Source of the DNA: Elusimicrobiota bacterium
GTDB taxonomy: Bacteria; Elusimicrobiota; Elusimicrobia; UBA1565; UBA9628
DNA: 64,000 nucleotides
Reading direction: 5' to 3'
NCBI GenBank assembly: GCA_016207605.1
Contig: JACQPJ010000036.1
Span: 1,486-65,485 of the forward strand
Positions within the stretch are counted from its first letter, which is position 1. Each line of letters starts with the position of its first letter. A program made the position numbers and the translations under genes. Below the pieces are notes generated by a model. That model made no database searches. It saw only the letters and a list, made by a program, of their open reading frames with translations, and was not told where the DNA came from. Shown piece by piece: positions 29,585-62,660 of this stretch.

Positions 29585-29647
29585 ACGCTACAAGGCCTTC
29601 CTCAGCCGCGTCTGTGCCGCGTCCGAAGGATCGCGGCCTAGACGCTC
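29585..29647 (+). repeat. 56-bp structured repeat family, copy A (single unit plus partial), filling the spacer between convergent etfA and the DHH gene
   Basis: Sequence: GACGCTACAAGGCCTTCCTCAGCCGCGTC TGTGCC GCGTCCGAAGGATCGCGGC CTAG. Stem 1 is GACGC/GCGTC and hairpin 2 is GCCGCG-TCC-GAA-GGA-T-CGCGGC. Confidence 0.7.
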
Positions 29648-30688
29648 CTAGACGCCGTCCCGGAAGGCCCAGCGGCGCTGGGCCGGGTCCAGTCCCTGTC
29701 CGGCCAGAAAGCCGGAGGCCGTCTTGTCCTCGGCCTCGCGCCAGGCAGCCTCCGGGGCGCCCTCGCCGACCTCAACCGAGCCCCCCGCGATCATGGCGTG
29801 CCCCCCGCCGCGGTTGCCGCCGCCGAGCAGGCGCTTGAGCAGGCGCCCGGCCCCGGCGCCGGGGTCGCTGGAGCGCAGGGAAACGTGGAGGCGGCCGGCG
29901 TAGCGGGCGGTGACCAGGGACCAACGCAGGCCGTTGAGCGTCAGCAGGAAGTCCGCCATCTGGGCCGCGCGGTCCGGCGTGTCCACCTCGCCCAGGTGCG
30001 CGCCGAGCGCGCGCCCGACGACGAACGCCTCCTGGATGCCGCGGGCCAGCGTCGTGAAGAAGCGTTCCGAGCGACGCGGGTAGGAGATGCGCCAGAGGGT
30101 CTTCATGTGCGCCTTGGGCCAGAGGGCCTGGTAGGCCTCCATGTCGCGGGGCGCGGCCTCGCGGCCGAGGTTCTGGGTCTCGGAGCCGATGCCGTAGATG
30201 ACGGCGGTGGCCAGGCGCCGGGGAACGCGCACGCCGGACAGGCGCAGAGCCTCGACGAGAATGGTGGTGGTGGCGCCGACGCCCTCGTCGACGAGGGCGA
30301 GGTCGGCCGGGGTGTCGGGGTGGCGCGGGTGGTGGTCGATGATCAAGTCGGGGATGCGGCGCGGCGGGCAGCGGTTGTTCTTGAAGGGCGGCTGGGTGTC
30401 CACCAGCGCGAGATGGGGCACTCCCGCCAGTTCGCCCTTGCGCAGGGGGCGCGCCGGCATCAGGAGCCGCTCGGCCATCATGCGGTTCTCGGCGCGGCCG
30501 ATGGCGCCGCCGTAGACGATGCGGGAGCGGATGCGCCCCAGGGCTTGGGCCAAATGGGCCAGCGCCCAGGCGCTGGCCAGGGCGTCGGGATCGGGATGGT
30601 CGTGGGTGAGGATGGTCAGAGGAGAGAGGGACCGGCCTTTCTCCGTGAACAGCTTGATGAGGCGGCCCGCGTGAAAGCCCGGCCTCAC
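29648..30688 (-). CDS. DHH/DHHA1-family phosphoesterase (NrnA/DhhP-like; candidate c-di-AMP or pApA phosphodiesterase)
   Basis: 346 aa. Motifs: THDHPDPDALAS (DHH motif I/II region), IIDHHP (DHH), and GGGHAMIAGG (DHHA1 GGGH motif). It overlaps cdaA by 4 nt. Confidence 0.8.
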   Translation of the reverse strand: MRPGFHAGRLIKLFTEKGRSLSPLTILTHDHPDPDALASAWALAHLAQALGRIRSRIVYGGAIGRAENRMMAERLLMPARPLRKGELAGVPHLALVDTQPPFKNNRCPPRRIPDLIIDHHPRHPDTPADLALVDEGVGATTTILVEALRLSGVRVPRRLATAVIYGIGSETQNLGREAAPRDMEAYQALWPKAHMKTLWRISYPRRSERFFTTLARGIQEAFVVGRALGAHLGEVDTPDRAAQMADFLLTLNGLRWSLVTARYAGRLHVSLRSSDPGAGAGRLLKRLLGGGNRGGGHAMIAGGSVEVGEGAPEAAWREAEDKTASGFLAGQGLDPAQRRWAFRDGV

Positions 30689-31566
30689 CTCCCCCTCCCG
30701 ATCCCCACGAAGAAGATCCAGAGCAGGACCGCGGCCGCCGCCGCGATCAGCTTCTCGCGCCAGTTCTGCGAGAGAAAGCGCAGCAGCACGTTCTCGGACT
30801 GAAGCGGCAGGCGCTCGCGGAAGAAAAGCTCGATCTCGTCCTGCAGGTCCTCCAGGCCGTCCACGGCCTTGAGCCCCCCGCGACGCGCCGTCGAGATGGT
30901 GCCGTGCTCCTCGCTGACGGCCAGGCAGAGCGCGTCGGCGCGCTCCGAGAGTCCCAGCGCCGCGGAGTGCCGCGTGCCCAGGTGCGTGACCTTGGCGAAG
31001 TCCTTGGAGAGCGGGAGCTGGACGCCGAAGCGGGAGACGCGCCCTTCCTCAATAAGCAGGGCCCCGTCGTGGCCCAGCGAGTGCGAGTCGAAGATGCTCT
31101 TGATCAGGGCCTCGGAGAGGTCGCCGTTCAAGTCCCAGCCGCCCGAGAGATGCCGGTCGAGGGGATCGAGGCCGCGCAGGACCACCAGCGCGCCGATGCG
31201 GTCGCGCGCCAGGTCGCCGAGCGAGCGCACCAGGATCTCGACTTGGCGGTGCGTGGGCGCGGACTTGAGCACGCCGCCCGTCAGGCTCCATACCGCCAGG
31301 CGCTCGAAGGCGGAGCGGATTTCCTCCTGGAAGATGACGATCACCGCGACGATGAAGACCGCGAAAAACCCCTGGAACAGCCCCACCGTCATGTGCATCC
31401 CGGAGAGGTAGGCGAGCGCGTACACCAACGCGAGCAAAAACAGGCCTATCGCCACGAACGCCGCGCGCGTGCGCTTGAACCAAAGCAGGAGCGCGTAGAT
31501 CAGCGCCCCGACCAGCGCCATATCCAGCACGTCGGCAGCCACGGCGTGCCTGAGGTTGGAGAGCAT
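30685..31566 (-). CDS. cdaA: diadenylate cyclase (c-di-AMP synthase), membrane-anchored CdaA type
   Basis: The track ORF 30685..32106 is trimmed to Met-181 (31566). It has three N-terminal TM helices followed by DisA_N motifs: HDGALLIEEGRV, LGTRHSAALGLSE, LAVSEEHGTIS. Confidence 0.85.
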   Translation of the reverse strand: MLSNLRHAVAADVLDMALVGALIYALLLWFKRTRAAFVAIGLFLLALVYALAYLSGMHMTVGLFQGFFAVFIVAVIVIFQEEIRSAFERLAVWSLTGGVLKSAPTHRQVEILVRSLGDLARDRIGALVVLRGLDPLDRHLSGGWDLNGDLSEALIKSIFDSHSLGHDGALLIEEGRVSRFGVQLPLSKDFAKVTHLGTRHSAALGLSERADALCLAVSEEHGTISTARRGGLKAVDGLEDLQDEIELFFRERLPLQSENVLLRFLSQNWREKLIAAAAAVLLWIFFVGIGRGR

Positions 31567-31666
31567 CGCGCCTTTAGTATAGCGCAAGAAGCGCGAGCCC
31601 GCCAGGAAGCCGCGGCGCGCGATCTCCCGTGTAATCGGAGCCGCGGTATGGCTATAATCCTCAGAT

Positions 31667-33817
31667 ATGACCATGAACTTAGGGCTGGAAGAAGAAGCGG
31701 GCCGTTTGGCTTCGGCCGTGCGCGAGGACGGCCTGGATGGAGCGGCCAACAGGCCCTTGAGCCCCGCGGCGAACGAGAAACTGCAGGCCAGCCTGCGAAC
31801 GATGCGCGCGGCCGCTCTTGACGGACGCCCCGCCAACGCCCGCATGAACGCCGCCGAGGCGCTGGAGGTCCTGCGCGCGGACACCGAGGAGGCCGGCTGG
31901 GATTTCAATCGGCTGGACGCCGTCGTGACGCGGACCCTCGACGAAACCGCCGCGCGCCGGGTCCGCCAGGGCGAGGAGCCCGCTCGGTTCGCGCGGACTC
32001 TGCTCGAAAGCCCCTCCACGCAGAATGCGGCTCTGCAAGGCGCTTCCTCCACGTGGGCCGCCCGCCGGCTCGCGGACTTGTCGATGCCGCGGACGTTCAC
32101 GTCCAAGACCCTGGTCCTGATGCTCCTCGGAGCCTCGATCCAAGTCCTGACCTACCCCTACCTGGTCCTCAAGGCCGGCATCGCCTCCGGCATCAGCATC
32201 TCGTCGGCGTTTCTGGCTTTTGCGCTGCAGAAGCTGACGTCCCGCTCGGGGCGCGTGGACGTGCGGGAGACCAACCAAATCCAGACCTTCATCGCCGCCT
32301 CGGGCTACGTCAGCTTCATGGTGGTGGTCCTGGCCGCCATGGACATGCTGGGCATTCTTCCCCCCAATCCCTGGCTCGTAGGCCTGTGGCTGGCGACCCT
32401 CGCCGTCCTGGGAACCTGGATGGTCGTTCCTTTCCGGCATCAAATGCTGGAAGTGGAGAAGCTGCCGTTCCCGGACGGCGCCGCCGTCGGCGAGCTGCTG
32501 CTGACGCTGGAGGATCCCACGGGCGCGAGCGCGGCGCAGACCAAATCGCTGGGTCTGGCCGCGGGGATCGCCGTCTTTTTCGTCGTGATCAAGGACTGGC
32601 TGCGCTGGATTCCCGCGCTTTTCGCCAACGAATTCCGCGTCGGCTTCGAGCCGTCCACGCTGCTGATGGGCGCCGGCGCGATCATCGGGCAGGAATCCTC
32701 CGGCAGAAAGACGCTGTTCTGGGCCTGCGCGACCGCCCTGGTCACCTGGGTCCTCGCGGCCCCGTGGATGGTAAGCTCGGGCTTGGCGCAGGAAGTCGCT
32801 GGGATCTTCGGGACGACCAAGGCGCTGGCCAACCGCAACTATTACCCCGTCCTCATGAGCTGGACGATGTGGCCGGCGACGATGCTGATGGTCGCCCACG
32901 GCCTGACGGCCCTGGCGCTGAATTGGAGACAGTTCAGGGACTCGTTCATGTCCCTGCAGGCGGCGGCGAAGGGCTTCCAGGCCCCGCAGAAGGACGTGCC
33001 CTTGAAGCCGCTGCTCGCGGGCATTCTGGCGCTCACGGCGCTGCTGGGCTGGCTGCAGCACGTTCTGTTCGGCATCAGCCCCCTGATCTCGGCCCTGGGC
33101 GTCCTGGTCTCCATTCCGCTGATGATGATGGGCATGCGCGTCAAAGGGCTCTCGGGCATCGGCCCCGTCTCCATCATCGGGTCCGTGGTGCAGCTGGTCT
33201 TCGGCTTCATCGCGCCGGGCAACCTGCCCGTGAACATGGCCACCTCCGCCAGCGGAGCCACGATCGCCGGGACGTCGGAAGCCGAGGGCGACGAGTTCCG
33301 AGCGGGCGCCATCGTCGGCAACCATCCCCGGACCTTGGTGATCATCCAATCCTGGGCCATGCCGTTTGCGACCATGCTCCTGGGGGTGGTCAGCTATCCC
33401 GTCGTCAAGACAATCTGGGGGTTCGGAGAAAACGGCCTGCCGGCCCCCACCGCCCACAAATGGCAGGGGCTCGCCCAGATCCTGAACAAGGGCGCAGCCG
33501 CGCTGCCCCACAGCAGCATCCCGGCGATGGAGATCGCCATCGCCGCGGGGATTCTCCTGGCCCTCTTGGAGACCCGGACGCAAAAGACGCGCTGGGCGTT
33601 CTGGACGCCCTCCTGCACGGGAATCGGCCTGGCCATGCTTCTGCCGGCGTCCATCATGTTCTCGATGGCGGCGGGCGCCTTGATCGCGTGGCTGCTGGGC
33701 CGCTCCTGGAGCCGGAGCAGGTCCTTCGTGGTCCCTACGGCCGCCGGCCTCATCGTCGGCGACGCGATGACGAGCCTGGCCGGCGGCGTGCTCCGGGTCG
33801 CCGGCCTGCTGCGCTGA
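31667..33817 (+). CDS. OPT-superfamily oligopeptide transporter with an N-terminal soluble extension of about 130 aa
   Basis: 716 aa. Polytopic and OPT-like from about aa 140 (KTLVLMLLGASIQVLTYPYLVLKAGIASGISISSAF ...). TATAAT at 31653-31658 lies 8 nt before the ATG, supporting this start. Confidence 0.75.
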   Translation: MTMNLGLEEEAGRLASAVREDGLDGAANRPLSPAANEKLQASLRTMRAAALDGRPANARMNAAEALEVLRADTEEAGWDFNRLDAVVTRTLDETAARRVRQGEEPARFARTLLESPSTQNAALQGASSTWAARRLADLSMPRTFTSKTLVLMLLGASIQVLTYPYLVLKAGIASGISISSAFLAFALQKLTSRSGRVDVRETNQIQTFIAASGYVSFMVVVLAAMDMLGILPPNPWLVGLWLATLAVLGTWMVVPFRHQMLEVEKLPFPDGAAVGELLLTLEDPTGASAAQTKSLGLAAGIAVFFVVIKDWLRWIPALFANEFRVGFEPSTLLMGAGAIIGQESSGRKTLFWACATALVTWVLAAPWMVSSGLAQEVAGIFGTTKALANRNYYPVLMSWTMWPATMLMVAHGLTALALNWRQFRDSFMSLQAAAKGFQAPQKDVPLKPLLAGILALTALLGWLQHVLFGISPLISALGVLVSIPLMMMGMRVKGLSGIGPVSIIGSVVQLVFGFIAPGNLPVNMATSASGATIAGTSEAEGDEFRAGAIVGNHPRTLVIIQSWAMPFATMLLGVVSYPVVKTIWGFGENGLPAPTAHKWQGLAQILNKGAAALPHSSIPAMEIAIAAGILLALLETRTQKTRWAFWTPSCTGIGLAMLLPASIMFSMAAGALIAWLLGRSWSRSRSFVVPTAAGLIVGDAMTSLAGGVLRVAGLLR

Positions 33818-33827
33818 GCGCCGCCGG

Positions 33828-33890
33828 GGCCGCGACCCTTCGGGCTCGGCACAGACGCGTCTGAGGAAAGCCTCTTAGCGTCTAGCGTCC
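33828..33890 (-). repeat. 56-bp structured repeat family, copy B (inverted orientation), between convergent OPT and M28 genes; overlaps the last ~5 codons and stop of the M28 gene
   Basis: The reverse complement reads GACGCTAAGAGGCTTTCCTCAGACGCGTC TGTGCC GAGCCCGAAGGGTCGCGGC. Confidence 0.7.
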
Positions 33891-35452: not shown

Positions 35453-35480
35453 TGACAGACAGGCTCGCTGCCTATATAAT
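35452..35480 (+). promoter_or_regulatory. perfect sigma70 consensus promoter TTGACA-17 nt-TATAAT upstream of the AAA ATPase gene
   Basis: TTGACA at 35452-35457 and TATAAT at 35475-35480, counted directly. A perfect consensus is unusual in a GC-rich genome. Confidence 0.55.
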
Positions 35481-35510
35481 GGAGATGCTAACTCCTAAAA
35501 AGAAGAGTTT

Positions 35511-36951: not shown

Positions 36952-36967
36952 CGTCGCCATGGAGCAC

Positions 36968-36996
36968 TTATAAGTAGCACTTTTTAGGCTTATACT
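36968..36996 (+). promoter_or_regulatory. promoter-like TTATAA-17 nt-TATACT ending 5 nt before the GTG start of the Fic gene (leaderless-type)
   Basis: Hexamers and spacing read directly. The same -10 (TATACT) and geometry occur at 2213-2241. Confidence 0.4.
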
Positions 36997-37001
36997 GAGC
37001 C

Positions 37002-45382: not shown

Positions 45383-45751
45383 CTAGCTGCACTCGAGAAC
45401 TCCCTTGCGCCAGAAGTAGGCGAGCATGAACAGGACCAAGACGGTGAAGACCGTCGCCGCGGCCAGGCCGGCGGCGTCGAAGGCCGGACGGTTGAGCGCC
45501 CAAGGCAGCAGGAAGGCCAGGTCCACGTCGAAGACCACGAAGAGCACGGCGAAGCGGTGATACAGGGCCGTCATCGGCTCGTGCGCGGGCGCCAGCGGCG
45601 GCAGGCCCGTCTCGTAGGGCATGTCCGCGTCGCCCTCGCGGCGGCCGGCCGGCCCGAAGAGGCGGCCGGCCGCCGCGAAGAAGCCGGTGAGCGCCAGCAC
45701 CGCCAGCAGGTTGACGCCTAAGCCCAGCAGGGCGAGCGCGCTCACGGCCAA
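45383..45751 (-). CDS. nuoA: NADH-quinone oxidoreductase subunit A
   Basis: 122 aa with three TM helices and YETGLPP..FDVDLAFLLPWA, typical of NuoA/ND3. Its start overlaps the 3' end of nuoN by 10 nt. Confidence 0.85.
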   Translation of the reverse strand: MAVSALALLGLGVNLLAVLALTGFFAAAGRLFGPAGRREGDADMPYETGLPPLAPAHEPMTALYHRFAVLFVVFDVDLAFLLPWALNRPAFDAAGLAAATVFTVLVLFMLAYFWRKGVLECS

Positions 45752-47139
45752 AGCCCCCCGATGAAGAGCGGCGCCGCGCCCAGCAGAACCGCGCCCAGCG
45801 CGCCCACCGCGAGCACGGCCGCCGCCTGGACGCTGTCAGGATTTCCGTCGCCGCGTCCGTGCCGCGTCCGCAGGATCGCGGCCTCGGGCGAGGCGGCGCG
45901 GCCCGCCGGCTCCGGGACGGGCTCCTCGAAATACAGGTCGCGCATGAGGCCCAGGTAGTAGCCCAGCGAGATCAGGGCCGCCAGCGCGCCGAAGAGGACG
46001 GGCGCGGCCAGCTCCGCGCGCACGGCCTGCCAAAAGACCAGGAGCTTGGCCAGGAAGCCGCCCGTGGGCGGCACGCCCGCCAAGGCGAAGAGGAGCACGG
46101 TCATGGCCAGGGCCTCCCGCGGCCGCCGCGCCGCCAGGCCGCGCAGGTCCGCGCGCGAGCGCGCGCCGGTCGCGCCCAGGAAGGCGAAGGCGCCGTTGCT
46201 CATGAAAACGTAGGCGACGAGGTAGAAGAGCAGCGCGGCCGCGGCCCCGGGGTCGCGGCCCAGGCGCTCCCAGGCGCCCACGCCCAGCACCAGGAAGCCC
46301 GCGTGCGCCAAGGACGAGCAGGCGAGCAGGCGCTGGAGCTTCTCCTGGCGCAGGGCCAGGACCGCGCCGACCAGGGCGGTGAGCGCGCCCGCAGCCGGCA
46401 GCCAGGCCGCGAAGGCGGGGGCGGGAGAAAGCTCGACGACGCGCATCAAAAAGAGGACGGCCGCGGCCTTGACGGCGGTGGACAGGAAACCCGCCACCTC
46501 CGGGGCGCAGGCCTCGTAGACGTCGGGCAGCCACCAGTGCAGGGGCACGGCGCCGATCTTGAACAGGGCGGCCGCGGCCATGAGCGCCAAGCCCCCCTGG
46601 CCCAGCGCTCCCGGCGCGGACGCCGCGGGGCCCAGCGTCCCCGCGTCGGCGTAATAGAGCGCCAGGCCGAACAGGAACAGCGCCCCGGCGAGGGCTCCCG
46701 AAAAGAAGTACTTGACCGCGGCCTCCAGCCGCCGCCCGGCCGCGCCCGGCTCGCCCACGCGCGCCACGAGCAGGTAGGCGGGGAGGGACATGAACTCCAG
46801 GCCCAGAAAGAGCATGGGCAGGTTCGCCGCGGCGCAGAGCAGGCCGATGCCCAGCGTCGTCCCGAGGAACAGCGCCGTCTCCACGTCGTCGCCCGAGGAG
46901 CGCAGGGCCAGGGGCAGGGCGGCGAGGTAGGCCGCGAACTGCCAGCCCAGGCCCTTGAGGTCCGCGGCGAAGAGCGGCGGCCGCGCGGCCGGAGACGCCA
47001 GGGTCAGCAAGAGGAGGGCGGCCAGCGGCGCGGCCAGGGCGAGGGCGCGCGCGAGCGCGGGGGACGGGCGGCGCAGGAGGCCCAAGCCCAGGGCGCCCAA
47101 GGTCCCCGCCGCCAGCGCGGCCTGCGGCAGGAGGCTCAT
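45742..47139 (-). CDS. nuoN: NADH-quinone oxidoreductase subunit N
   Basis: The track ORF 45742..48573 is trimmed to MSLLPQAALAAG. The product is 465 aa and antiporter-like (LEFMSLPAYLLV, KYFFSGALAGALFLFG, LFKIGAVPLHWWLPDVYE). Confidence 0.85.
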   Translation of the reverse strand: MSLLPQAALAAGTLGALGLGLLRRPSPALARALALAAPLAALLLLTLASPAARPPLFAADLKGLGWQFAAYLAALPLALRSSGDDVETALFLGTTLGIGLLCAAANLPMLFLGLEFMSLPAYLLVARVGEPGAAGRRLEAAVKYFFSGALAGALFLFGLALYYADAGTLGPAASAPGALGQGGLALMAAAALFKIGAVPLHWWLPDVYEACAPEVAGFLSTAVKAAAVLFLMRVVELSPAPAFAAWLPAAGALTALVGAVLALRQEKLQRLLACSSLAHAGFLVLGVGAWERLGRDPGAAAALLFYLVAYVFMSNGAFAFLGATGARSRADLRGLAARRPREALAMTVLLFALAGVPPTGGFLAKLLVFWQAVRAELAAPVLFGALAALISLGYYLGLMRDLYFEEPVPEPAGRAASPEAAILRTRHGRGDGNPDSVQAAAVLAVGALGAVLLGAAPLFIGGLWP

Positions 47140-52604: not shown

Positions 52605-52617
52605 TGATTGCAACCCC

Positions 52618-54855: not shown

Positions 54856-54998
54856 CCCATTTCCGGAGCGCGGCTTTCAACTCAAAGGGCGCGGCGCAAC
54901 ATTTTTGTTATCACGTCCGCCCCGCTTTCATTTATAATGCGCCCCATGACCGAGCATAGGCGAGGAAATGGTTGCATCCATCGCCGTAGGAGGCAACC

Positions 54999-56402: not shown

Positions 56403-56490
56403 CCCCCCTTGACAGGTCAATGGGATCCCCTTATACTCCCGTCATGCGTCGGTTGACGCGCCGAGCGTCCGCCTTGGAGGAAGTCCGCCC

Positions 56491-58110
56491 ATGAAAAGGA
56501 TGCTCGCCGCGAGCCTTGCCGCGTTCCTGGCCGTTACTCCCTCCGCCGCCCAGCCCGCGCTCGTCCCCGCCGCCGGCCTGGCGCGCATCGGCGTGGCCGC
56601 GGCCGTGCGCGGGCCCGTGAAGGCCCTCGCCCCGGGCCAGGCCGTCGGCCGCGTCATCGAGAGCGGACGCGCGCTCTACGTCAACGACCACGTTGTCACC
56701 GGCCCCGACAGCCGCCTCCAGATCCTCCTTCTCGACCAGACCACCTTCACGATCGGCCCGAACAGCGACCTGGTCCTCGACGAGTTCGTCTACGATCCCA
56801 AGACGAACGCGGGCAAGCTGTCGGCCCGCATGGTCAAGGGCGTCTTTCGCTTCGTCACGGGCAAGATCGCCAAGAAGCACCCCGACGACGTGCGCGTGAA
56901 GGTGCCGACCGGGACCATCGGCATCCGCGGCACCATGGTCGCCGGGATGATCGAGGGCGGGAGGGCCGACGTCGCTCTTCTCGGCCCCGGCCCCGCCAAC
57001 GACGCCCGCGAGCCCGTGGGCGGCATCACCATCTCCAACGACCACGGCCAAGTGGACATCGACCGGGGCGGCTTCTACACCTCCATGCGCGCCGACGCCC
57101 CGCCGACTCCTCCAGCGCCGGTCTCGGCGCAGGAGATGCAGGGCTGGATGGCCCGGATTGATTCCCACGAGCCCGGACGTCCCGGCGGGCCCGAGAACGA
57201 GCGGGGTGAGCGCGGCGCCGGGGACCGCCAAGGTCCCAGGGACGGCGAACGCATGAACGGCGAGCAGGGCCGCCGGGACGGCCAGGGCCGCGATGAGCGC
57301 GGTCCACGGGAGGGAGACCGCCGAGGCGGCGAGCAGGGCCAGTGGGACGGCGAGCATCAGGACGGCGAACAAGGGCGCTGGAGCGGAGACCGCCGCGACG
57401 GCGACCAGCACGAGGGCGATCGTCCCCGCGACGGCCATCGCCAGCCCGAGGGCGACCGTCCGGGCGGCGAGAGGGGCGGCCAGTATCGGAATGGTCATGA
57501 CGGGCGGGGTCCGGGTTCCGGCCCCGCGTTTTCGGCGGGCGACTTCTCCGGGGAGAACATGGCATCGGGAGACGCCCGTTCCGCGCTGATTTCAAGCCAG
57601 ATCGAGTACGCCCAGCACCAGGCCGCGGCCTTCGCGGCCCAGGATCAAGTCAGCGCGACCGCCGGGCTCCCCGACAGCCTCTCCTCATGGGATCAGGTCC
57701 GCGCCATCACGGCCGGTACGGGCAAGTACGTGGGGGCCGGAAGCTACGTCTGTTCGGGCGGGCCGTGCGGTTCTTCCGGGACGGGAGGATTCCAGACCGA
57801 GATCGCCATTGATTTCGGTCAAAGGACCATCGGGGGCGGCAGCTCCAACATCTCCCTGACGGCCGGCTCCCTCGGCACCTCCATCACCACCGGCATCAAC
57901 GCCGTCAGCTACGCGGGGCTGCCCGACTTGGCGGCCCTCGACTTGAGCCATAAGGTGACGAACGCGAAGTTCGTCTTCGCCGGCATCGCGCTCAGCAACA
58001 GCGACGACGGGATCGCGAGCGACGGGCTCGTGGGCTTCTCCTACAGTGACACGAGCGCGAGCGTCATCGCGGAGGGCCGGGCCGCGACCGACCTGGTGGT
58101 CGGCCACTAG
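56491..58110 (+). CDS. secreted FecR-domain protein with a ~110-aa Asp/Glu/Arg/Gly-rich low-complexity region and a Gly/Ser-rich beta C-terminal domain
   Basis: 539 aa with signal LAAFLAVTPSAAQP. The FecR-type region is GRALYVNDHVVTGPDSRLQILLLDQTTFTIGPNSDLVLDEF..GTIGIRGT. The repeat-like tract is GERGAGDRQGPRDGERMNGEQGRRDGQGRDERGPREGDRRGGEQGQWDGEHQDGEQGRW... Confidence 0.7.
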   Translation: MKRMLAASLAAFLAVTPSAAQPALVPAAGLARIGVAAAVRGPVKALAPGQAVGRVIESGRALYVNDHVVTGPDSRLQILLLDQTTFTIGPNSDLVLDEFVYDPKTNAGKLSARMVKGVFRFVTGKIAKKHPDDVRVKVPTGTIGIRGTMVAGMIEGGRADVALLGPGPANDAREPVGGITISNDHGQVDIDRGGFYTSMRADAPPTPPAPVSAQEMQGWMARIDSHEPGRPGGPENERGERGAGDRQGPRDGERMNGEQGRRDGQGRDERGPREGDRRGGEQGQWDGEHQDGEQGRWSGDRRDGDQHEGDRPRDGHRQPEGDRPGGERGGQYRNGHDGRGPGSGPAFSAGDFSGENMASGDARSALISSQIEYAQHQAAAFAAQDQVSATAGLPDSLSSWDQVRAITAGTGKYVGAGSYVCSGGPCGSSGTGGFQTEIAIDFGQRTIGGGSSNISLTAGSLGTSITTGINAVSYAGLPDLAALDLSHKVTNAKFVFAGIALSNSDDGIASDGLVGFSYSDTSASVIAEGRAATDLVVGH

Positions 58111-58778
58111 AACAGCGCCAGGAAGCGGTCCTCGTACTCCTCGAAGAGGCCGTACTCCCGCAGGCGGGCGCCCAGGTGCGCGCGCTTTTCGGGATTCCGC
58201 GCGGCGTCGGCGAAGAGCGCTTCCACCTGCCGACGCCGACGGTCACCCTCCCCGCGGTCGGGCGCGAACATCCCGCGCCGCTCCAGGTCGCGCACGTGCC
58301 CGGGGAAGGAGCGCGCGGCCTCGTCCAGCGTCAGCTTCATGAGAGCCAGCGCCCAGCCGGCGTCGGGGCAGCGCACGACGGCTCGGTCCGAGGCGCCGCG
58401 AGCGTCCAGGTCGGCGAGCAGGCGGTCGGAGACCTGGCGGGCGTCCTCGGCGAGCACGCGCGCGGACAGGTCTTGGTTGCGAAAGCCGTATTCGAGCGCG
58501 CGCAGCAGGTCGGCGTAGGACGCCGAGAGCCAGCGGCCGAACTCGGCGGGGCCCTCCCCGAAGCCTTGGAAACGCTCGCGCAGGGCGTCGGGCGTCAGAA
58601 TCCGCGGGCGCGCGGAGACCACCGCGCCCTCGCGCAGGCGCGTGCGGCGAGCCGCCGCCCCGAGGGGGGAGATCAGGTGGTAGCTGATGCGCGTCGCCCC
58701 GAACGTCGCCAGGGGCCGCCGCGGCACGCGCAGGACCTCAGTGTCCGCCAGAAGGCGCCGGATCGAGGCGTTCTCCAT
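58107..58778 (-). CDS. hypothetical protein (no family recognised)
   Basis: 223-aa ORF filling the gap between convergent and divergent neighbours. Its codon usage is GC3-rich like the real genes, and no alternative real gene covers this region. Confidence 0.45.
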   Translation of the reverse strand: MENASIRRLLADTEVLRVPRRPLATFGATRISYHLISPLGAAARRTRLREGAVVSARPRILTPDALRERFQGFGEGPAEFGRWLSASYADLLRALEYGFRNQDLSARVLAEDARQVSDRLLADLDARGASDRAVVRCPDAGWALALMKLTLDEAARSFPGHVRDLERRGMFAPDRGEGDRRRRQVEALFADAARNPEKRAHLGARLREYGLFEEYEDRFLALF

Positions 58779-58836
58779 GCGGTCTTTGTACCAAAAACCG
58801 GGACGGACCGGGGAGCCGTGCTAGAATAGACGCCCA

Positions 58837-61500
58837 GTGAAGCCGCTCCCGACCCGCGCCTTCCGCCTGCCCAACGGCCTGCGCGTCGTGGTGCAGACCG
58901 ACCGTTCCGTTCCTCTGGTCGCGCTCTCCATCACCTACCGCGTGGGCTCTCTGGACGAGGAGCCCGGCCGGGCCGGCTTCGCCCATCTCTTTGAGCACCT
59001 GATGTTCCAAGGCACGGAGCTTCTGCCTCCCAACGGACTCTCCAAGCTGGTCGAAAGCCACGGCGGCTCCGACAATGCCTACACCATGAAGACCAACACG
59101 ACCTACCACGAGGTGGTTCCCTCCTGGGCCCTGGAGGCGGCGCTGTGGGGGGAGGCCGACCGCATGCGCGGCCTGCGTCTGTCGCCGCGCGAGCTGGAGA
59201 TCGAGAAGCGCGTCGTCCTTGAGGAGATGAGCCAGAGCTACTTCAACCAGCCCTACCGCCGCGCCGCCGACGCGGAGATGGGAACCCTCGCCTTCGCGCG
59301 CTGGGAGTCCGCGCACCCCACCATCGGCGAGGAGGCCGACCTGCGCGCGGCTTCGCTCGAGGACGTCCGCCGCTTCTACGACCTCCACTACGCCCCCGAC
59401 AACGCGGCGCTGGCGCTCGTGGGCGACGTGTCCCCGGCTCAGGCGCGGCGCCTGGCCCTGCGCTACTTTGGGGCCGTGCCGCGCCGTCCGCGCCGGCGGC
59501 GTCCCGCGCCGGCCGAGCGCCGTCCCGCCGCGCCGCGCCGCCGCCGGGTGGAGGATCCGCTGGCGTCCGCCCCGCTTCTCGTGCGGGGCTGGCACGCGCC
59601 GCCGCGCGGGAGCGCCGACTACTGGGCGCTGACCGCGCTGGCCGCCGTCCTGGCCGGCGGCGAGGACGGTCCTCTGCATCAGGAGCTGGTCAAGTCGCGC
59701 CGCCTGGCGCTCTCGGTCTCGGCCCACATGCCCTACTGGTCGAGCCATCACAACGCCCGCGGCGCCGACCTTTTCGGCTTGTTCGCCACCCTGCGGGCCG
59801 AGGCCGACCCCGAGGAGGCGCTGGCGGCCGTCGAGGGAGTGCTCGCCCGCCTGCGCCGCGAGGGGCCCAGCGTTGAAGAGCTCGCCCGGGCCCGCGTCCA
59901 GCTCGAGCGGGCCTGGTTCGAGAGCCAGCAGTCCCTGGTCGAGCGCGCCCAGACGCTGAGCTCCTATGCCGCCCTGGTCGGCGATCCGGCCGGCCTGCGT
60001 CGGGACCTGCGCCGCCTGTTGGCCGCGTCCCCGCGCGGCATCGCCGCCGCCGCGCGCCGCTGGCTGCCCGCCCGTCGGAGCCTGACCTTGGAGATCGTTC
60101 CCGGCCCGCCGCGGCCGGCGATCCCGCCCTCGCTGCCGTCCGCGCCGCCGCCCGAGGAGTCCCGCGGCCCCGCCGCGCCGCCCCCGCCGCCTGGTCCGCC
60201 GCGCGCGCCGTCCCTGCCGGTCCTCGCGCGCGGCGCGCTGGCCTGCGGCCTGGATGTCCTGGTCCTGCGCGACCCGCGGCTGCCCCTGGTCGAGGCGCGG
60301 CTCGGCCTGCGCGCGGGCCGCGTCCACGAGGAGCCGGGGGAGGACGCGCTCTCGCCCGCCTGCGAGGAGATGCTCTTCAAGGGCTGCGAGGGGCAGGACG
60401 CGGCGTCCGTGGCCCGGGCCTTCGCCGGGCTCGGCTGGGCCGCCTCCGCCGCCAGCGAGCCCGAGTGGCTCAAGATCGCGGCCTCGGGGCTGTCCAGGCG
60501 CTTCGCGGAGTTCTGCGCCCAGCTTGGCCGCGTCCTGGCCTCGGCGGCCTACCCGGACGACGAGACGGCGCTCTGGCGCGAGAACGCCGTCCAGGAGCTC
60601 GCGGTGCGCCGCTCCCAGCCGTCCTTCCTCGCCGACGAGCGCCTGCGCGCCGAGCTCTTCGGCGCCCATCCCTACGGCCGCGGAGCGCCCGACGAGGCGG
60701 CGATCGAGGCCGTTAACTCCGCGCGCCTGCGCGCCTTCCACGCGGCCCGCCTGCGCCCCGCCGGCGGCTACCTGGTCCTGGCCGGAGACGTCGACCCGGA
60801 CGCCGCCGTTCGAATCTTGGAGGACGTCTTCGCTTTCTGGCCGTCGGGTCCCGTCCCGGCGGCGGCGGCTCCCCTGCCCGAGCGGGGGCCGGGGCGCGCG
60901 GCCGTCGTCGCGCGTCCGGGGTCGTCGCAGGCCAGCCTGCTGGCCGCGCAGACTCTCGCGCTGGCGCCGAAGGACCCCGACTACGCCGATTTCGCCGCGG
61001 CCAACCACGTGCTGGGCGGGACGGCGAACTCGCGCCTGTTCGAGAACCTGCGCACGCGGCGCGGCTACACCTACGGGGCCTATTCGTCCTTCGACCTCTA
61101 CGCCCGCGGCGCGGTTTGGTCGGCTGCGGCGGACGTGCGCCCGGACGCGGCCAAGGCCGCGCTGGCCGAGATCCGCGTCGAGCTCGGGCGCCTGATCGCG
61201 GAGCCGATCCCGGAGGAGGCGCTGTCCGCAGCCAAGCGCCACATGGCCGGGCTTTTCCTCATGCGCCTGTCGTCCTTGGACCGCGCCGCGAGCTACCTGT
61301 CGGCGGTCGTGGAGGGCGGGCGCGACCCGGCCGCGGCGATGGCTTCCTATCAATCCCGGCTCGACGCGGTCACCCCGGAGTCCGCGCGCCGGGCCGCGGC
61401 CGCGCGCCTGGACCCGGAGCGTTTGATTGCGGTCGCCGTCGGCGACCCCGCCGTCCTCGACTTCGGCCTCGACCCTTCGGGCTCGGCACAGGTGTGCTGA
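58837..61500 (+). CDS. M16-family (pitrilysin/insulinase) zinc peptidase, fused double-unit form
   Basis: 887 aa with a GTG start. It has the inverted zinc motif HLFEHLMFQGT (HxxEH) near the N-terminus and a second, inactive M16-like half. A TAGAAT -10 lies 9 nt upstream. The last ~11 codons are encoded by repeat copy C. Confidence 0.85.
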   Translation: MKPLPTRAFRLPNGLRVVVQTDRSVPLVALSITYRVGSLDEEPGRAGFAHLFEHLMFQGTELLPPNGLSKLVESHGGSDNAYTMKTNTTYHEVVPSWALEAALWGEADRMRGLRLSPRELEIEKRVVLEEMSQSYFNQPYRRAADAEMGTLAFARWESAHPTIGEEADLRAASLEDVRRFYDLHYAPDNAALALVGDVSPAQARRLALRYFGAVPRRPRRRRPAPAERRPAAPRRRRVEDPLASAPLLVRGWHAPPRGSADYWALTALAAVLAGGEDGPLHQELVKSRRLALSVSAHMPYWSSHHNARGADLFGLFATLRAEADPEEALAAVEGVLARLRREGPSVEELARARVQLERAWFESQQSLVERAQTLSSYAALVGDPAGLRRDLRRLLAASPRGIAAAARRWLPARRSLTLEIVPGPPRPAIPPSLPSAPPPEESRGPAAPPPPPGPPRAPSLPVLARGALACGLDVLVLRDPRLPLVEARLGLRAGRVHEEPGEDALSPACEEMLFKGCEGQDAASVARAFAGLGWAASAASEPEWLKIAASGLSRRFAEFCAQLGRVLASAAYPDDETALWRENAVQELAVRRSQPSFLADERLRAELFGAHPYGRGAPDEAAIEAVNSARLRAFHAARLRPAGGYLVLAGDVDPDAAVRILEDVFAFWPSGPVPAAAAPLPERGPGRAAVVARPGSSQASLLAAQTLALAPKDPDYADFAAANHVLGGTANSRLFENLRTRRGYTYGAYSSFDLYARGAVWSAAADVRPDAAKAALAEIRVELGRLIAEPIPEEALSAAKRHMAGLFLMRLSSLDRAASYLSAVVEGGRDPAAAMASYQSRLDAVTPESARRAAAARLDPERLIAVAVGDPAVLDFGLDPSGSAQVC

Positions 61501-61522
61501 GGAATGGTTCATAACACCTAGC
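61465..61522 (-). repeat. 56-bp structured repeat family, copy C (inverted orientation), overlapping the 3' end of the M16 peptidase gene
   Basis: The reverse complement reads CTAGGTGTTATGAACCATTCCTCAGCACACC TGTGCC GAGCCCGAAGGGTCGAGGCC. Its first half is identical to unit 3 of the array at 62484-62660. Confidence 0.7.
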
Positions 61523-61548
61523 GCCCGGAATTAACTAGGATTGCCGGC

Positions 61549-62487
61549 ATGAACCCACGACCCCGTCCGTTCGCCGCCCTTGCTTTCGCCGTCCTCGCCG
61601 CGCCCGCCGCCGCTCTCGTCAGCGGGGGCGTCGACCAGACGTTCGGCTCCCATGGCTACCGGGGGACGAGCGCCCACGCCTCCCTGGACCTGGGCGACGC
61701 GTGGTACGCGGTTCCTTCCTACTCGAACGCGCAGTCGGACGCGGTCGCGGGCGTCTACCACCGCTACGGTCTCCGGGTCGGCTACGAGAGGGGCCCCCTC
61801 AGCCTGGGCGTGCAAGGGGATGTCCTGCCCAAGGTTGACGGCTACCAGCGGGCCTCCGCCGGCGCCGACCTTACGGTCTCGCTGCTCTCCGGCGGCTCGG
61901 CGCACCAGCACAAGATGGCCGGCCCCGGCGCGGCGGGGGGCAACCGCTCCATGGGCTCGGGTTTGACCGGGGTCGACGCCGGCGTCTCCGGCGTCTACGT
62001 CCGCCACCAGGACGACGCGCTCGGCGTCGCGGGAGCCTCCGGCTCCGGCTTGAACCGGACGGGCGCCCGCCGCGCGGCGCCGTTCAAGGCGGACGAGGGG
62101 GACTTTTCGGTCTTCGCGGGCGCGCGCCTGCTGCTGGCTGAGGTCAGCGCCCAGGCGACCAAGAGCGTCTACTCCAAGACCCTCGACGGCAACCAGCTCC
62201 GCCAGGCGCCCTATCTGGCCCTCGCCGGCTTCGGCCCGGCCGCGCAGGGCTACCCGGACGCCGCCTTCAGCGCGCGGGTCAAATGGACGCTGCTCCCGCT
62301 CATCCATCCGTACGCGTCCTACGCGCACACGACGTTCAAGCTCGGCCAGCGTCCCTCCGACGGCTACGAGGCCGGCGTTGCCGTGGGCCTTCGCTTGGCG
62401 GACGTCAAGGCCGGCTGGCAGCGCTACGTCCAGAGCGGATTTCCGACCCGCGACACCGCGTCCGTGGGCGCGAGCTTGAACTTCTAG
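61549..62487 (+). CDS. hypothetical outer-membrane beta-barrel-like protein
   Basis: 312 aa with signal FAALAFAVLAAPAAALVSG. It shows alternating hydrophobic patterns and a C-terminal ..VGASLNF (terminal Phe), typical of OMPs. The gene is bracketed by inverted copies of the 56-bp repeat. Confidence 0.5.
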   Translation: MNPRPRPFAALAFAVLAAPAAALVSGGVDQTFGSHGYRGTSAHASLDLGDAWYAVPSYSNAQSDAVAGVYHRYGLRVGYERGPLSLGVQGDVLPKVDGYQRASAGADLTVSLLSGGSAHQHKMAGPGAAGGNRSMGSGLTGVDAGVSGVYVRHQDDALGVAGASGSGLNRTGARRAAPFKADEGDFSVFAGARLLLAEVSAQATKSVYSKTLDGNQLRQAPYLALAGFGPAAQGYPDAAFSARVKWTLLPLIHPYASYAHTTFKLGQRPSDGYEAGVAVGLRLADVKAGWQRYVQSGFPTRDTASVGASLNF

Positions 62488-62660
62488 ATGCTATGAGCCT
62501 TTCCTCGCCGCATCTGTGCCGAGCCCGAAGGGTCGAGGCCTGGATGCTATGAGCCTTTCCTCGCCGCATCTGTGCCGAGCCCGAAGGGTCGAGGCCTAGG
62601 TGTTATGAACCATTCCTCAGCACACCTGTGCCGCGTCCGAAGGATCGCGGCCTGGATGCT
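62484..62660 (+). repeat. tandem array of the 56-bp structured repeat: 3 full units plus a 6-nt start of a fourth
   Basis: Units start at 62487, 62543 and 62599, giving an exact period of 56 nt. Units 1 and 2 are identical (GATGCTATGAGCCTTTCCTCGCCGCATCTGTGCCGAGCCCGAAGGGTCGAGGCCT). Unit 3 is a variant (GGTGTTATGAACCATTCCTCAGCACACCTGTGCCGCGTCCGAAGGATCGCGGCCT). Confidence 0.85.

What the first reader, a model, noticed from the sequence alone, without database searches (positions are those of the whole stretch)
29585..62660. Novel 56-bp two-hairpin repeat family with compensatory stem changes, always at gene 3' ends
Copies and structure:
- Six units are found at four loci: 29585-29647, 33828-33890, 61465-61522 and the array at 62484-62660.
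- They share the plan CTAG, a 5-bp stem, a TAYRAG..TTCCTC loop, the complementary stem, TGTGCC, then a GC-rich hairpin with a GAA/UUC loop.
- Stem 1 covaries perfectly between copies: GATGC/GCATC, GGTGT/ACACC, GACGC/GCGTC.
- Hairpin 2 occurs in two forms. One is GCCGCG-TCC-GAA-GGA-T-CGCGGC. The other is GCCGAG-CCC-GAA-GGG-T-CGAGGC, which has tandem G-A mismatches.

Placement:
- At all four loci the orientation that yields a C(UUCG)G-type loop in RNA lies in the 3' end or 3' UTR of a gene. These are the DHH gene, OPT, the M16 peptidase and the lipoprotein at 62667.
- Three loci are convergent-gene junctions.

This pattern fits REP/BIME-like elements acting as mRNA 3' stabilisers or terminators, or targets of a RAYT-type transposase. 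No such transposase gene is in this window.
Basis: seen in the sequence. Interest (0 to 1): 0.65.

Follow-up and report, generated by a model that had tools for sequence, protein, structure and literature searches.

The report
Stop-codon-hugging mobile repeat of Elusimicrobiota
The repeats are real copies of an undescribed 56/57-base, two-hairpin insertion element found across Elusimicrobiota, which usually sits exactly between one gene's stop codon and the next gene's start or stop; it is a new family of a known kind (MIRU/REP-like), not a new kind of system.

Summary
The window (an Elusimicrobiota contig, 68.5% GC) holds seven units at five loci, not six at four, plus trailing unit fragments. 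The plan is CTAG, stem-loop 1 with a TTCC loop, TGTGCC, a GC-rich hairpin 2, then CT-R-R. About 95 more copies occur in Elusimicrobiota genomes and in high-GC metagenome contigs. Both helices covary: 93% of cells are paired and 8 of 15 pairs show compensatory changes. There is no Rfam match and I found no published description. The unit is inserted DNA. Copy c3 is an in-frame 57-nt insertion inside nuoN that 13 of 13 homologs lack, and the array replaces a 6-nt spacer in a relative. Copy c4 rewrites the last codons of an M16 peptidase. Family-wide, the unit's TAG is the upstream gene's stop codon in 50 of 72 loci. Its 3' end abuts the next start codon or a convergent gene's stop. It is not an intrinsic terminator. 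Many units carry a mini-ORF and a GAGG that may keep operon translation intact, as proposed for mycobacterial MIRUs. That point has only modest support, and the mobilising enzyme is unknown.

The parts
29581..29637 (+). Unit c1 (57 nt, stem AGACGC/GCGTCT, hairpin 2 GCG form). Its TAG (29582-29584) is the stop codon of etfA. It lies at the convergent etfA/DHH junction.
   Evidence: 81.3 bits. Relatives have no unit here and carry an extra gene of about 706 aa.
29638..29656 (+). Two trailing 5' unit fragments, CTAGACGCTC and CTAGACGCC. The CTA of the second (29648-29650) is the DHH stop codon on the - strand, and the fragment supplies the last DHH codons (..DGV*).
   Evidence: The window DHH ends ..RWAFRDGV*, while relatives end ..RWPFR[S/G]*.
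33829..33885 (-). Unit c2 (57 nt, hybrid hairpin 2) at the convergent OPT/M28 junction. The M28 frame reads through CTAG and stops at a TAA in loop 1 (33875-33877).
   Evidence: 81.8 bits.
45826..45882 (+). It is antisense and in frame inside the nuoN coding sequence (45742-47139, - strand). Its ends are CTGG and CTCG rather than CTAG, which would be in-frame stops.
   Evidence: 71.2 bits; 465 aa against 442-455 aa; a roughly 20-aa insert absent from 13 of 13 homologs.
61466..61521 (-). Unit c4 (56 nt, stem AGGTGT/ACACCT), antisense to both flanking + strand genes. The M16 peptidase frame runs 35 nt into it and stops at 61498-61500. The last roughly 10 residues are unit-encoded.
   Evidence: 77.2 bits; homologs end ..LGL*, the window ends ..FGLDPSGSAQVC*.
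62484..62651 (+). Tandem array c5-c6-c7 (3 x 56 nt). The TAG at 62485-62487 is the stop codon of the 312-aa gene. c5 and c6 are 98% identical. c7 has the stem-loop 1 of c4 and the hairpin 2 of c1.
   Evidence: The orthologous junction in L125 is a 6-nt spacer.
62652..62670 (+). Truncated fourth unit (CTGGATGCTGCCAGG) followed by CTAG. The CTA at 62667-62669 is the stop codon of the convergent 151-aa gene.

Best explanation
The repeats are copies of a non-autonomous, inserted DNA element of 56 or 57 nt that is widespread in Elusimicrobiota. It is a MIRU/REP-like intergenic repeat.

Anatomy on the defined 'forward' strand:
- C-TAG.
- Stem-loop 1: a 6-bp stem that covaries, with a purine run and TTCC(TC) in the loop.
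- An invariant TGTGCC linker.
- Hairpin 2: 21-22 nt, GC-rich, read GCCG....CGGC, with variable sequence but conserved pairing.
- C-T-R-R.

Shown:
- It is inserted DNA. There are three filled-versus-empty or remodelled comparisons: nuoN, the array junction, and the M16 tail.
- Both hairpins are kept by compensatory change, even at orthologous sites.
- It usually fills the entire space between genes. Its own TAG serves as the upstream gene's stop codon. Its 3' T-R-R is almost always a stop codon.
- The next gene starts 3-25 nt after the unit's 3' end, in 21 of 27 cases within 5 nt of that 3' stop codon. Alternatively, a convergent gene uses the 3' CTA as its TAG.
- Between co-directional genes it is nearly always sense.

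Inferred:
- Copies survive mainly where they do no harm. That means exactly at a stop codon preceded by C, in very compact genomes where CTAG is otherwise avoided.
- The element is built to be translationally transparent. It supplies a stop codon and often a GAGG Shine-Dalgarno-like motif in the 3' arm of hairpin 2. It also often carries an ATG-started mini-ORF running from just after the upstream stop to the stop next to the downstream start. This would relay ribosomes as proposed for MIRUs.
- The hairpins, the strand specificity, the TGTG-plus-palindrome module, the CT steps at both junctions and the lack of terminal inverted repeats suggest mobilisation in trans as single-stranded DNA by an HUH/Y1 (RAYT or IS200-like) enzyme. 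That enzyme has not been found.

In this window the copies are the 'passenger' type. Three sit at convergent junctions, one is in frame inside nuoN, and one rewrites the M16 tail. Two (c1 and c4) lie where genes present in relatives are missing.
For: - Real and non-random.
- Family membership and taxonomy: 14 full units in Elusimicrobia/ota (or unclassified) MAGs from a hairpin-2 pattern. About 68 more come from a stem-1 pattern in high-GC metagenome contigs. The window's proteins have only Elusimicrobiota relatives.
- Structure.
- In-situ compensated changes at orthologous sites. L021 versus L061 differ in hairpin 2; L003, L010 and L029 differ in stem 1.
- Insertion: c3 is absent from 13 of 13 NuoN homologs. 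The array corresponds to the 6-nt spacer TGA-cggggc-TCA in L125, with both proteins keeping the same final residues. The M16 tail is unit-encoded.
- Placement: the upstream ORF ends at the unit TAG in 14 of 14 MAG loci and in 50 of 72 non-redundant loci.
- The 3' CT-R-R is present in 55 of 76 loci, and 52 of those are stop codons, with TGG avoided (Fisher p = 0.008).
- Downstream starts lie 3-25 nt after the unit, 21 of 27 within 5 nt of the 3' stop. The convergent stop is at offset 0 in 8 of 15.
- Orientation: sense versus antisense between co-directional genes is at least 20:4.
- Downstream genes are unrelated: TrmD-, RlmN-, GalE-, AtpH- and NuoN-like, judged from their N-terminal sequences, not by a family search.
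- CTAG is avoided in the window, observed/expected 0.41.
- Mini-ORF: 59 of 83 units have an ATG frame that spans the unit. The ATG position tracks unit length. Relay-frame stops occur in 1 of 39 tandem-sense units against 5 of 23 units without an upstream sense gene.
- The MIRU precedent is in PMC12548453 and PMC3184786.
Against: - No transposase was found.
- The head before hairpin 2 is GTGC, not GT(A/G)G, and arrays are direct rather than alternating, unlike REP/BIME.
- The mini-ORF is not universal. The common AGACGC stem has ACG instead of ATG, and L123:6526 lies between co-directional genes without any ATG.
- One of the other two frames is nearly as open as the relay frame (3 of 39). The length/ATG correlation could simply reflect two subfamilies.
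- Perfect-hairpin variants lack GAGG yet still precede start codons.
- The only empty sites come from relatives at 47-82% protein identity, so the exact target and any target duplication are not resolved.
- Conservation at orthologous sites with compensated changes could reflect a host-level RNA function or gene conversion, rather than element-level selection.
Confidence: 0.7

Rival explanations
1. It is a host-serving structured RNA module. The two hairpins, transcribed at the end of the upstream cistron, would protect mRNA segments from 3' exonucleases or set processing sites. This would tune relative expression within operons and at convergent gene ends, as REPs do in the E. coli malEFG operon. 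Dispersal would then be secondary.
For: - Strong sense-orientation bias between co-directional genes.
- The same unit is kept at orthologous junctions across species. The loop drifts as fast as third codon positions, but the stems are kept by compensated changes.
- Mismatches in hairpin 2 on the forward strand are almost all purine-purine, which are tolerated in RNA, rather than the pyrimidine-pyrimidine pairs the other strand would give.
- Stable two-hairpin folds, with z-scores of -2 to -3.3.
Against: - Copies also occur antisense (c3, c4, and 4 of about 24 tandem loci) and inside a coding sequence.
- The flanking genes are unrelated.
- There is no terminator signature.
- Both strands fold equally well.
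- Nothing here measures RNA ends or stability.
- It does not explain why the unit begins exactly at the stop codon.
Confidence: 0.3
2. It is a true REP/BIME family, mobilised and maintained by a RAYT, with hairpin 2 plus TGTG as the REP proper.
For: - Hairpin 2 with its invariant TGTGCC lead resembles published REPs such as TGTAGAGCCGAGCCCATGCTCGGCT and TGTGGGAGCGGGC...GCCCGC.
- Hairpin-2 variants are similar among contigs of one metagenome assembly, though bin identity is unknown, and they differ between assemblies.
- Palindromy is preserved by compensation.
- Copies are mostly extragenic and sometimes clustered.
Against: - The head is GTGC, not GT(A/G)G.
- Units are never seen as inverted doublets or alternating BIME arrays. 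The array is head-to-tail with an extra, different hairpin.
- No RAYT-like ORF was seen in 890 kb, and genes between inverted unit pairs are not transposases.
- Copy number per genome is unknown.
Confidence: 0.25
3. It is a classical MITE derived from an IS (for example IS5-like, with target YTAR) that duplicates a CTAG-type tetranucleotide on insertion.
For: - A 5' CTAG and a 3' CTAG or CTAA in 43 of 76 loci look like a 4-bp direct repeat.
- Reviews report tetranucleotide direct repeats at filled MIRU sites.
Against: - There are no terminal inverted repeats beyond the palindromic CTAG itself (by inspection of alignments A1 and A2).
- The 5' copy is almost invariably CTAG, while the 3' copy varies among all three stop codons. 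Simple decay of a duplication would not give that pattern.
- c2, c3 and c4 lack a matching 3' repeat.
- The strong strand and orientation asymmetry is not expected for a TIR element with a palindromic target.
Confidence: 0.15
4. It is a ligand- or temperature-sensing leader (riboswitch or RNA thermometer) that controls the downstream gene by sequestering GAGG in hairpin 2.
For: - In type-A units GAGG lies in the weakened 3' arm of hairpin 2, 4-9 nt before the start codon.
- An alternative fold pairs loop-1 CCUC with GAGG.
Against: - Downstream genes are functionally unrelated.
- Many units have no downstream sense gene, including every unit in the window.
- Many variants lack GAGG altogether.
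- There is no conserved ligand-pocket-like core beyond short linkers.
- There is no Rfam match.
Confidence: 0.05

Closest known systems
MIRU (mycobacterial interspersed repetitive units; Supply et al. 1997, as summarised in PMC12548453 and PMC3184786)
   Same: - Short units (40-100 bp there, 56/57 bp here), sometimes in head-to-tail arrays.
- GC-rich internal inverted repeats.
- Located in intergenic spacers of operons, in the same direction as the flanking genes.
- Filled versus empty sites between species.
- Tetranucleotide direct repeats at the ends.
- A small ORF whose ends abut or overlap the neighbouring genes' stop and start codons. This is thought to let the element insert with minimal effect on expression through translational coupling.
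   Different: - A different phylum, and I did not compare the sequences directly.
- Here the element's own TAG becomes the upstream stop codon, and the 3' end carries a second stop. MIRUs are described as inserting at start codons with -4 spacing.
- The mini-ORF is absent from a common subfamily (ACG in place of ATG).
- Many copies sit at convergent gene ends.
- Two defined hairpins with demonstrated covariation.
REP/BIME elements and their RAYT transposases (Nunvar et al. 2010, PMC2817692)
   Same: - A short GC-rich imperfect palindrome preceded by a conserved TGT(G/A)-type head.
- Palindromy maintained by compensatory mutation.
- Mostly extragenic.
- Lineage-specific sequence variants.
- Clustering.
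- A possible role at mRNA 3' ends.
   Different: - The head is GTGC rather than GT(A/G)G.
- The unit contains a second, unrelated hairpin.
- Arrays are direct rather than alternating.
- Strict register with stop and start codons.
- No RAYT identified.
RPE (Rickettsia palindromic elements) and other repeats fused in frame to genes (PMC3184786)
   Same: c3 is an in-frame insertion of a palindromic repeat inside a conserved protein (NuoN), in a loop that tolerates it. c4, c2 and the c1 fragments extend or replace gene 3' ends, as described for several repeat families.
   Different: RPEs are 105-146 bp and are typically intragenic. Here intragenic copies are the exception, and the usual place is the intergenic spacer.
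PATE-type minimal derivatives of IS200/IS605 (from my own knowledge, not tested against a paper here)
   Same: - No terminal inverted repeats.
- Two different subterminal hairpins.
- Strand-specific.
- Apparent insertion immediately 3' of a fixed tetranucleotide (CTAG). c4 looks like insertion right after CTAG without duplication.
   Different: The hairpins abut the ends much more closely than in IS608-type ends. No TnpA or TnpB was found. A 3' CT-R-R is usually present.

Membership tests
REP/BIME (RAYT-associated) | GT(A/G)G head immediately 5' of the palindrome | tested here: not met
   The invariant lead is CTGTGCC, so the tetranucleotide is GTGC in all 84 aligned members. The feature definition is taken from PMC2817692.
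REP/BIME (RAYT-associated) | Short GC-rich imperfect palindrome kept by compensatory changes | tested here: met
   Hairpin 2 is 21-22 nt, with many sequence variants that all pair. Four of its 9 pairs show changes on both sides.
REP/BIME (RAYT-associated) | Arranged as inverted doublets or arrays of alternating orientation | tested here: not met
   The window array is head-to-tail, and L076 also has a direct tandem. Inverted pairs occur only at kilobase distances around ordinary genes.
REP/BIME (RAYT-associated) | A cognate RAYT gene flanked by two inverted REPs in the same genome | not testable with these tools
   Only 64 kb of this genome is available. No Y1/HUH-like ORF was found in 890 kb of held DNA using from-memory probes, which is not decisive.
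REP/BIME (RAYT-associated) | High copy number (more than 100 per genome) | not testable with these tools
   There are 5 loci in 64 kb here. Elsewhere there was only about one extra copy per 85-100 kb of flanking DNA. No complete genome is available.
MIRU-like intercistronic repeats | Located in intergenic spacers of operons, co-oriented with the flanking genes | tested here: met
   Sense versus antisense is at least 20:4 between co-directional genes. All 14 MAG loci follow this pattern. In the window itself, none of the five loci is of this type.
MIRU-like intercistronic repeats | Filled versus empty orthologous sites (evidence of insertion) | tested here: met
   The nuoN insert is absent from 13 of 13 homologs. 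The array corresponds to a 6-nt spacer in L125.
MIRU-like intercistronic repeats | Internal small ORF whose ends abut or overlap the neighbouring genes' stop and start codons | tested here: inconclusive
   It is present in 59 of 83 units, with the ATG position matching the length class, and some stops overlap the next start (ATGA, GTGA, TGATG). It is absent from the AGACGC subfamily and at L123:6526. The frame-specific stop-avoidance signal is weak.
MIRU-like intercistronic repeats | Tetranucleotide direct repeats at both ends | tested here: inconclusive
   The 5' end is CTAG in 17 of 20 unbiased units. The 3' end is CTAG 30, CTAA 13, CTGA 9, CTGG 3, and other 21, out of 76. The repeat is similar at the two ends but is not an exact duplication.
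MIRU-like intercistronic repeats | Sequence homology to mycobacterial MIRUs | not tested
The phylum is different, so homology is not expected.
Classical MITE | Terminal inverted repeats matching an IS, plus a target-site duplication | tested here: not met
   The ends share only the palindromic CTAG. The 5' CTAGATGC and the reverse complement of the 3' end, CTAGGCCT, do not match further (alignments A1 and A2).
Intrinsic (Rho-independent) terminator | GC-rich hairpin followed by a T-run | tested here: not met
   No terminator-like site overlaps any unit. The sequence after hairpin 2 is CCTAG or CCTGG, and on the other strand it is CACAG.
Any curated RNA family (Rfam 15) | Covariance-model match | tested here: not met
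   Only a tRNA reaches the gathering score in the window. There are no matches at E <= 10 on the array.
Riboswitch or cis-regulatory leader | Association with a coherent set of downstream genes | tested here: not met
   The downstream genes are unrelated. Many units have no downstream sense gene.

The most novel reading that the evidence does not exclude
The element is a stop-codon-seeking mobile repeat. It would integrate specifically at C|T-R-R stop codons, possibly guided by homology between its own ends and typical gene ends such as ..GGCCTAG. It would be built so that ribosomes finishing the upstream gene re-start on its mini-ORF, melt both hairpins and are delivered to the next gene. That would make it an insertion that is translationally invisible in compact operons. 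In some lineages it would have been co-opted as the standard intercistronic spacer supplying the stop codon, the Shine-Dalgarno sequence and the coupling.
Probability: 0.3. Interest if true: 0.65.

Novelty: new member of a known kind. Interest (0 to 1): 0.45.

Why it matters
Elusimicrobiota are known almost only from metagenome-assembled genomes, and I found no repeat family described for them in the searches run here. This one matters for four reasons:
- It is a compact, easily searched marker of the phylum.
- It changes gene ends. It supplies stop codons, adds or replaces C-terminal residues, and has inserted 19 codons into NuoN. Gene callers and annotators should know about it.
- In this window it coincides with two places where genes present in relatives are missing, so it may drive rearrangements.
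- If the mini-ORF and GAGG features are functional, it would be a second, independent example, besides mycobacterial MIRUs, of a mobile element built to preserve translational coupling. It would give a natural design for 'insulated' intercistronic spacers.

Tried and rejected
- Rfam, at gathering scores and at E <= 10: nothing apart from a tRNA.
- Literature: searching for Elusimicrobia plus REP, and for the literal core sequences, gave nothing relevant.
- Chance matches: L005, L006 and L013 from the genome scan, and about 35 low-GC metagenome hits, lack the rest of the unit and were discarded.
- A 9-bp target duplication, suggested by CTAGACGCT occurring three times at c1: not general, because 3' flanks beyond CT-R-R show no similarity to the 5' end.
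- The tandem G.A pair as a conserved, K-turn-like motif: rejected, because perfect-hairpin variants are common.
- Transposase between inverted unit pairs (L048, L024, window c4/c7): these are ordinary genes.
- HUH/Y1 screens by regex and by tblastn with from-memory consensus probes: no hit better than E = 0.36.
- The window's own contig beyond the 64 kb could not be fetched.
- Integron attC and programmed readthrough or bypass were considered and dropped. The flanking genes are housekeeping genes with native N-termini, and the downstream frames are not consistent.
- An association of the GAGG variant with downstream genes (27:2 against 18:11) was not pursued, because hairpin variants are lineage-specific and therefore confounded.

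Full report
**1. What is in the window**

The window has 68.5% G+C. Reading the four reported places shows the same unit each time. On the strand I call forward, the plan is:
- CTAG.
- A 6-bp stem (AGAYGC or AGGTGT), a loop of 18-19 nt with a purine run followed by TTCC(TC), then the complementary arm.
- TGTGCC.
- A GC-rich hairpin with a GAA loop and one bulged T.
- GGC, usually followed by CT-R-R.

A covariance model built from 21 units and run without filters confirms it. The model finds exactly seven units at 49-82 bits, and the next-best hit scores 15 bits. A simple core pattern gives 4 matches against 0.16 expected.

The units fall into two length classes:
- 57 nt: c1 at 29581-29637 (+), c2 at 33829-33885 (-), c3 at 45826-45882 (+).
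- 56 nt: c4 at 61466-61521 (-) and c5-c7 at 62484-62651 (+).

Short 5' fragments of further units trail c1 (29638-29656) and c7 (62652-62666).

**2. Gene context in the window**

Pfam and third-position GC were used to identify the real genes.
- c1 lies between etfA (+) and a DHH/NrnA phosphoesterase (-). The etfA stop is the TAG of the unit's CTAG. The DHH stop is the CTA of the second trailing fragment.
- c2 lies between an OPT transporter (+) and an M28 peptidase (-). The peptidase frame reads through CTAG and stops at a TAA in loop 1.
- c5-c7 lie between a 312-aa gene (+), whose stop is the CTAG of c5, and a 151-aa gene (-), whose stop is the CTAG after the truncated fourth unit.
- c4 is antisense, between the M16 peptidase and the 312-aa gene, both on the + strand. 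The peptidase frame ends 35 nt inside it.
- c3 is antisense inside nuoN (section 5).

'Always at 3' ends' is too simple.

**3. The family outside the window**

Fourteen carry the whole unit. All 14 come from MAGs labelled Elusimicrobia or Elusimicrobiota, or just 'bacterium'. The other three have the hairpin pattern only and are chance matches.

The single metagenome scan used a pattern anchored on stem 1, leaving hairpin 2 free. It gave 106 loci, of which about 68 (58-73% G+C) are real members.

The window's own proteins have only Elusimicrobiota relatives: 71% identity for M16, 73% for NuoN and 82% for DHH at best.

Scanning 603 kb of the fetched DNA with the model found 95 units. Only six of these had not been selected by a pattern.

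There is no match in Rfam 15 and none in the searchable literature.

**4. Structure**

The two samples were selected on different halves of the unit, so each gives an unbiased test of the other half.
- Stem 1, in the hairpin-2-selected sample, is 96% paired. Four of 6 pairs are changed on both sides, and 0 of 500 shuffles reach the observed score.
- Hairpin 2, in the stem-1-selected sample, takes many forms. Examples are GAGCCCGAAGGGTCGAGG, GAGCCCGAAGGGTCTCGG, GGGCCCGAAGGGTCCCGG, GGGCCTTCCCAGGCCCGG, GGGCCCCTCGGGCCCGG, GCGTCCCTCGGGACGCGG and GGATCCCTCCGGATCCGG. All of them fold.
- On 84 aligned members, 93.4% of cells pair, against 26-45% when partners are slid. Eight of 15 pairs have compensatory changes.

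Mismatches in hairpin 2 are nearly all purine-purine on the forward strand, which hints that this is the strand that matters.

Single units fold into the two hairpins on either strand, with z-scores of -2 to -3.3. In the GAGG variant an alternative fold pairs the loop-1 CCUC with GAGG.

At orthologous junctions in different species the loop drifts about as fast as neighbouring third codon positions. The stems stay paired through compensated changes at the same locus.

**5. It is inserted DNA**

(a) nuoN. The reading frame runs straight through c3, and the protein is 465 aa against 442-455 aa for homologs. In an alignment, 13 of 13 homologs lack a segment of about 20 residues in the loop before the last transmembrane helix. 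That segment is c3 read antisense. Fifty-seven nt is 19 codons. The ends of c3 are CTGG and CTCG, and CTAG at either end would be an in-frame stop.

(b) The array. In MAG GcC5-9 (locus L125) the orthologs of the 312-aa and 151-aa genes are 47% and 52% identical. They are convergent, with the spacer TGA-cggggc-TCA. In the window the same junction reads TAG-[three and a bit units]-CTA. Both proteins keep the same last residues.

(c) The M16 tail. Homologs end ..LGL*, while the window protein ends ..FGL followed by DPSGSAQVC* read from c4. Removing 48 nt restores ..TTC GGC CTC TAG.

(d) Synteny. Relatives have no unit next to DHH or ETF-alpha, and they carry a gene of about 706-750 aa there that the window lacks. 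Likewise, two genes lie between M16 and the 311-aa gene in L125. So c1 and c4 sit at synteny breakpoints.

**6. The placement rule across the family**

- In all 14 MAG loci the upstream ORF ends at the unit's TAG. A downstream gene starts 3-8 nt after the unit. From their N-terminal sequences these genes look TrmD-, RlmN-, GalE-, AtpH- and NuoN-like, among others; no family search was run on them.
- On 76 de-duplicated loci, the upstream sense ORF ends at the TAG in 50 of 72 with enough flank.
- The 5' tetranucleotide is CTAG in 17 of 20 units not selected on it.
- The 3' flank is CT-R-R in 55 of 76. T-R-R is a stop codon in 52 of those 55, and TGG is avoided (Fisher p = 0.008).
- Downstream sense starts lie 3-25 nt after the unit, 21 of 27 within 5 nt of that stop.
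- At convergent junctions the other gene's stop is the CTA directly after GGC in 8 of 15.
- Between co-directional genes the unit is sense at least 20 times and antisense 4 times.
- CTAG is avoided in the window (28 observed, 68 expected). Eight of the 28 belong to the repeats.
- No terminator-like site coincides with a unit.

**7. A possible relay mini-ORF**

In 57-nt units with the AGATGC stem, the sequence reads TAG|ATG. That frame stays open for 18 codons, down to the 3' T-R-R. Since 57 is a multiple of three, this is also the upstream gene's own frame.

In 56-nt units, ATG CTA TGA is followed by an overlapping ATG in CTATGAG. That second ATG is in frame with the same 3' stop.

The loop ATG is present in 17 of 24 56-nt units and in 5 of 52 57-nt units. 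Overall, 59 of 83 distinct units have such a spanning frame. Where CT-R-R is not in frame or is not a stop, the frame often ends at a stop that overlaps the next start (ATGA, GTGA, TGATG).

Stops in this frame occur in 1 of 39 units between co-directional genes. They occur in 5 of 23 units that have no translated gene upstream.

This is what has been proposed for MIRUs, whose ORF is coupled to the neighbouring gene so that insertion has little effect on expression (PMC12548453; PMC3184786).

The caveats are serious:
- One other frame is almost as open.
- The two length classes may simply be two subfamilies.
- The widespread AGACGC stem has ACG instead of ATG.
- One such unit, L123:6526, sits between co-directional genes.

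I regard this part as plausible but not shown.

**8. How it might move**

There are no terminal inverted repeats. There are two different hairpins on a defined strand and a TGTG-plus-palindrome module like published REPs. Both junctions have CT steps. One copy (c4) looks like an insertion immediately after CTAG without duplication.

These features point to a single-strand, HUH/Y1-type mechanism acting in trans. This is inference only. The head is GTGC rather than GT(A/G)G, arrays are direct rather than alternating, and no such enzyme was found in 890 kb. Those probes were written from memory, and the genomes are sampled very thinly.

An odd observation remains. The inferred ancestral targets resemble the unit's ends. 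The ETF-alpha of relatives ends ..GTCGCGGCCTAG, identical over 11 nt to the 3' end of c1. The c4 target reads CTAG|AGGCC. The empty spacer in L125 is CGGGGC. This could mean homology-assisted integration, remnants of older units, or chance in GC-rich DNA.

**9. Verdict**

It is an undescribed, phylum-wide, structured insertion element. Its closest functional analogues are MIRUs, and its closest structural analogues are REPs. It is a new member of a known kind.

The terminator idea and the emphasis on the UUCG strand are not. What is not yet known is the enzyme, the exact target rule, and whether the hairpins or the mini-ORF serve the host.

Noticed in passing
window 58107-58110: Two genes on opposite strands (56413-58110 + and 58107-58820 -) share one CTAG as their overlapping stop codons. 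This is a natural, unit-free example of the kind of site the repeat occupies elsewhere. L130 shows the same arrangement (CTAG shared by a 709-aa gene and ETF-alpha).
   Followed up: partly
L128 5812-5830, L130 5732-5750, versus window 29627-29641: ETF-alpha of relatives ends ..GTC GCG GCC TAG, identical over 11 nt to the 3' end of unit c1 (TCGCGGCCTAG). The window's etfA is about 5 codons shorter and stops at the unit's TAG. Either integration uses homology to gene ends, or the relatives retain a remnant of an older unit.
   Followed up: partly
window 22155-22167: The 13-nt string GGACGCTAGACGC, identical to the 5' junction of unit c2, occurs inside a long - strand ORF (18710-22414). It could be a solo 5' fragment or a potential target.
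   Followed up: no
L086 3587-3714: One metagenome unit carries a 67-nt palindromic insertion nested inside hairpin 2 (..GGGTCCGTCCCGAACATCC...GGGACGAAGGATCCC..), possibly another small element that targets this hairpin.
   Followed up: no
window 29585-29660 and 61466-61548 compared with L128-L131 and L125: c1 and c4 both lie where genes present in relatives are missing from the window. Relatives have a membrane protein of about 706-750 aa between DHH and ETF-alpha. They also have a C14 peptidase plus a 493-aa gene between M16 and the 311-aa gene. This suggests repeat-associated deletions or rearrangements.
   Followed up: partly
window 61466-61521 and 62596-62651: c4 and c7 are 93% complementary inverted copies that bracket the 312-aa gene, which is possibly an outer-membrane protein (it ends ..SLNF). 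Stem-loop 1 is identical in the two, but hairpin 2 of c7 matches c1. This indicates recombination or gene conversion between copies.
   Followed up: partly
window 27724-27806: A tRNA gene on the + strand (Rfam RF00005, 65.8 bits, 83 nt, so probably a long-variable-arm type).
   Followed up: no
window 12311-12460: Two tandem copies of a 75-nt unit, 77% identical. The nature of the region is not determined.
   Followed up: no
window 57232-57419: Several copies of a degenerate repeat with a period of about 69-72 nt (65-77% identical), lying within the span of the 56413-58110 (+) gene. It probably encodes a repetitive protein segment.
   Followed up: no
window 22296-22374 and 25802-25880: A 79-nt direct repeat, 75% identical, 3.5 kb apart. 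It could be the homologous ends of two paralogous - strand genes.
   Followed up: no
window 24831-24863 and 25550-25582: A 33-nt inverted repeat, 88% complementary, with arms 686 nt apart. It is unrelated to the 56-nt family.
   Followed up: no
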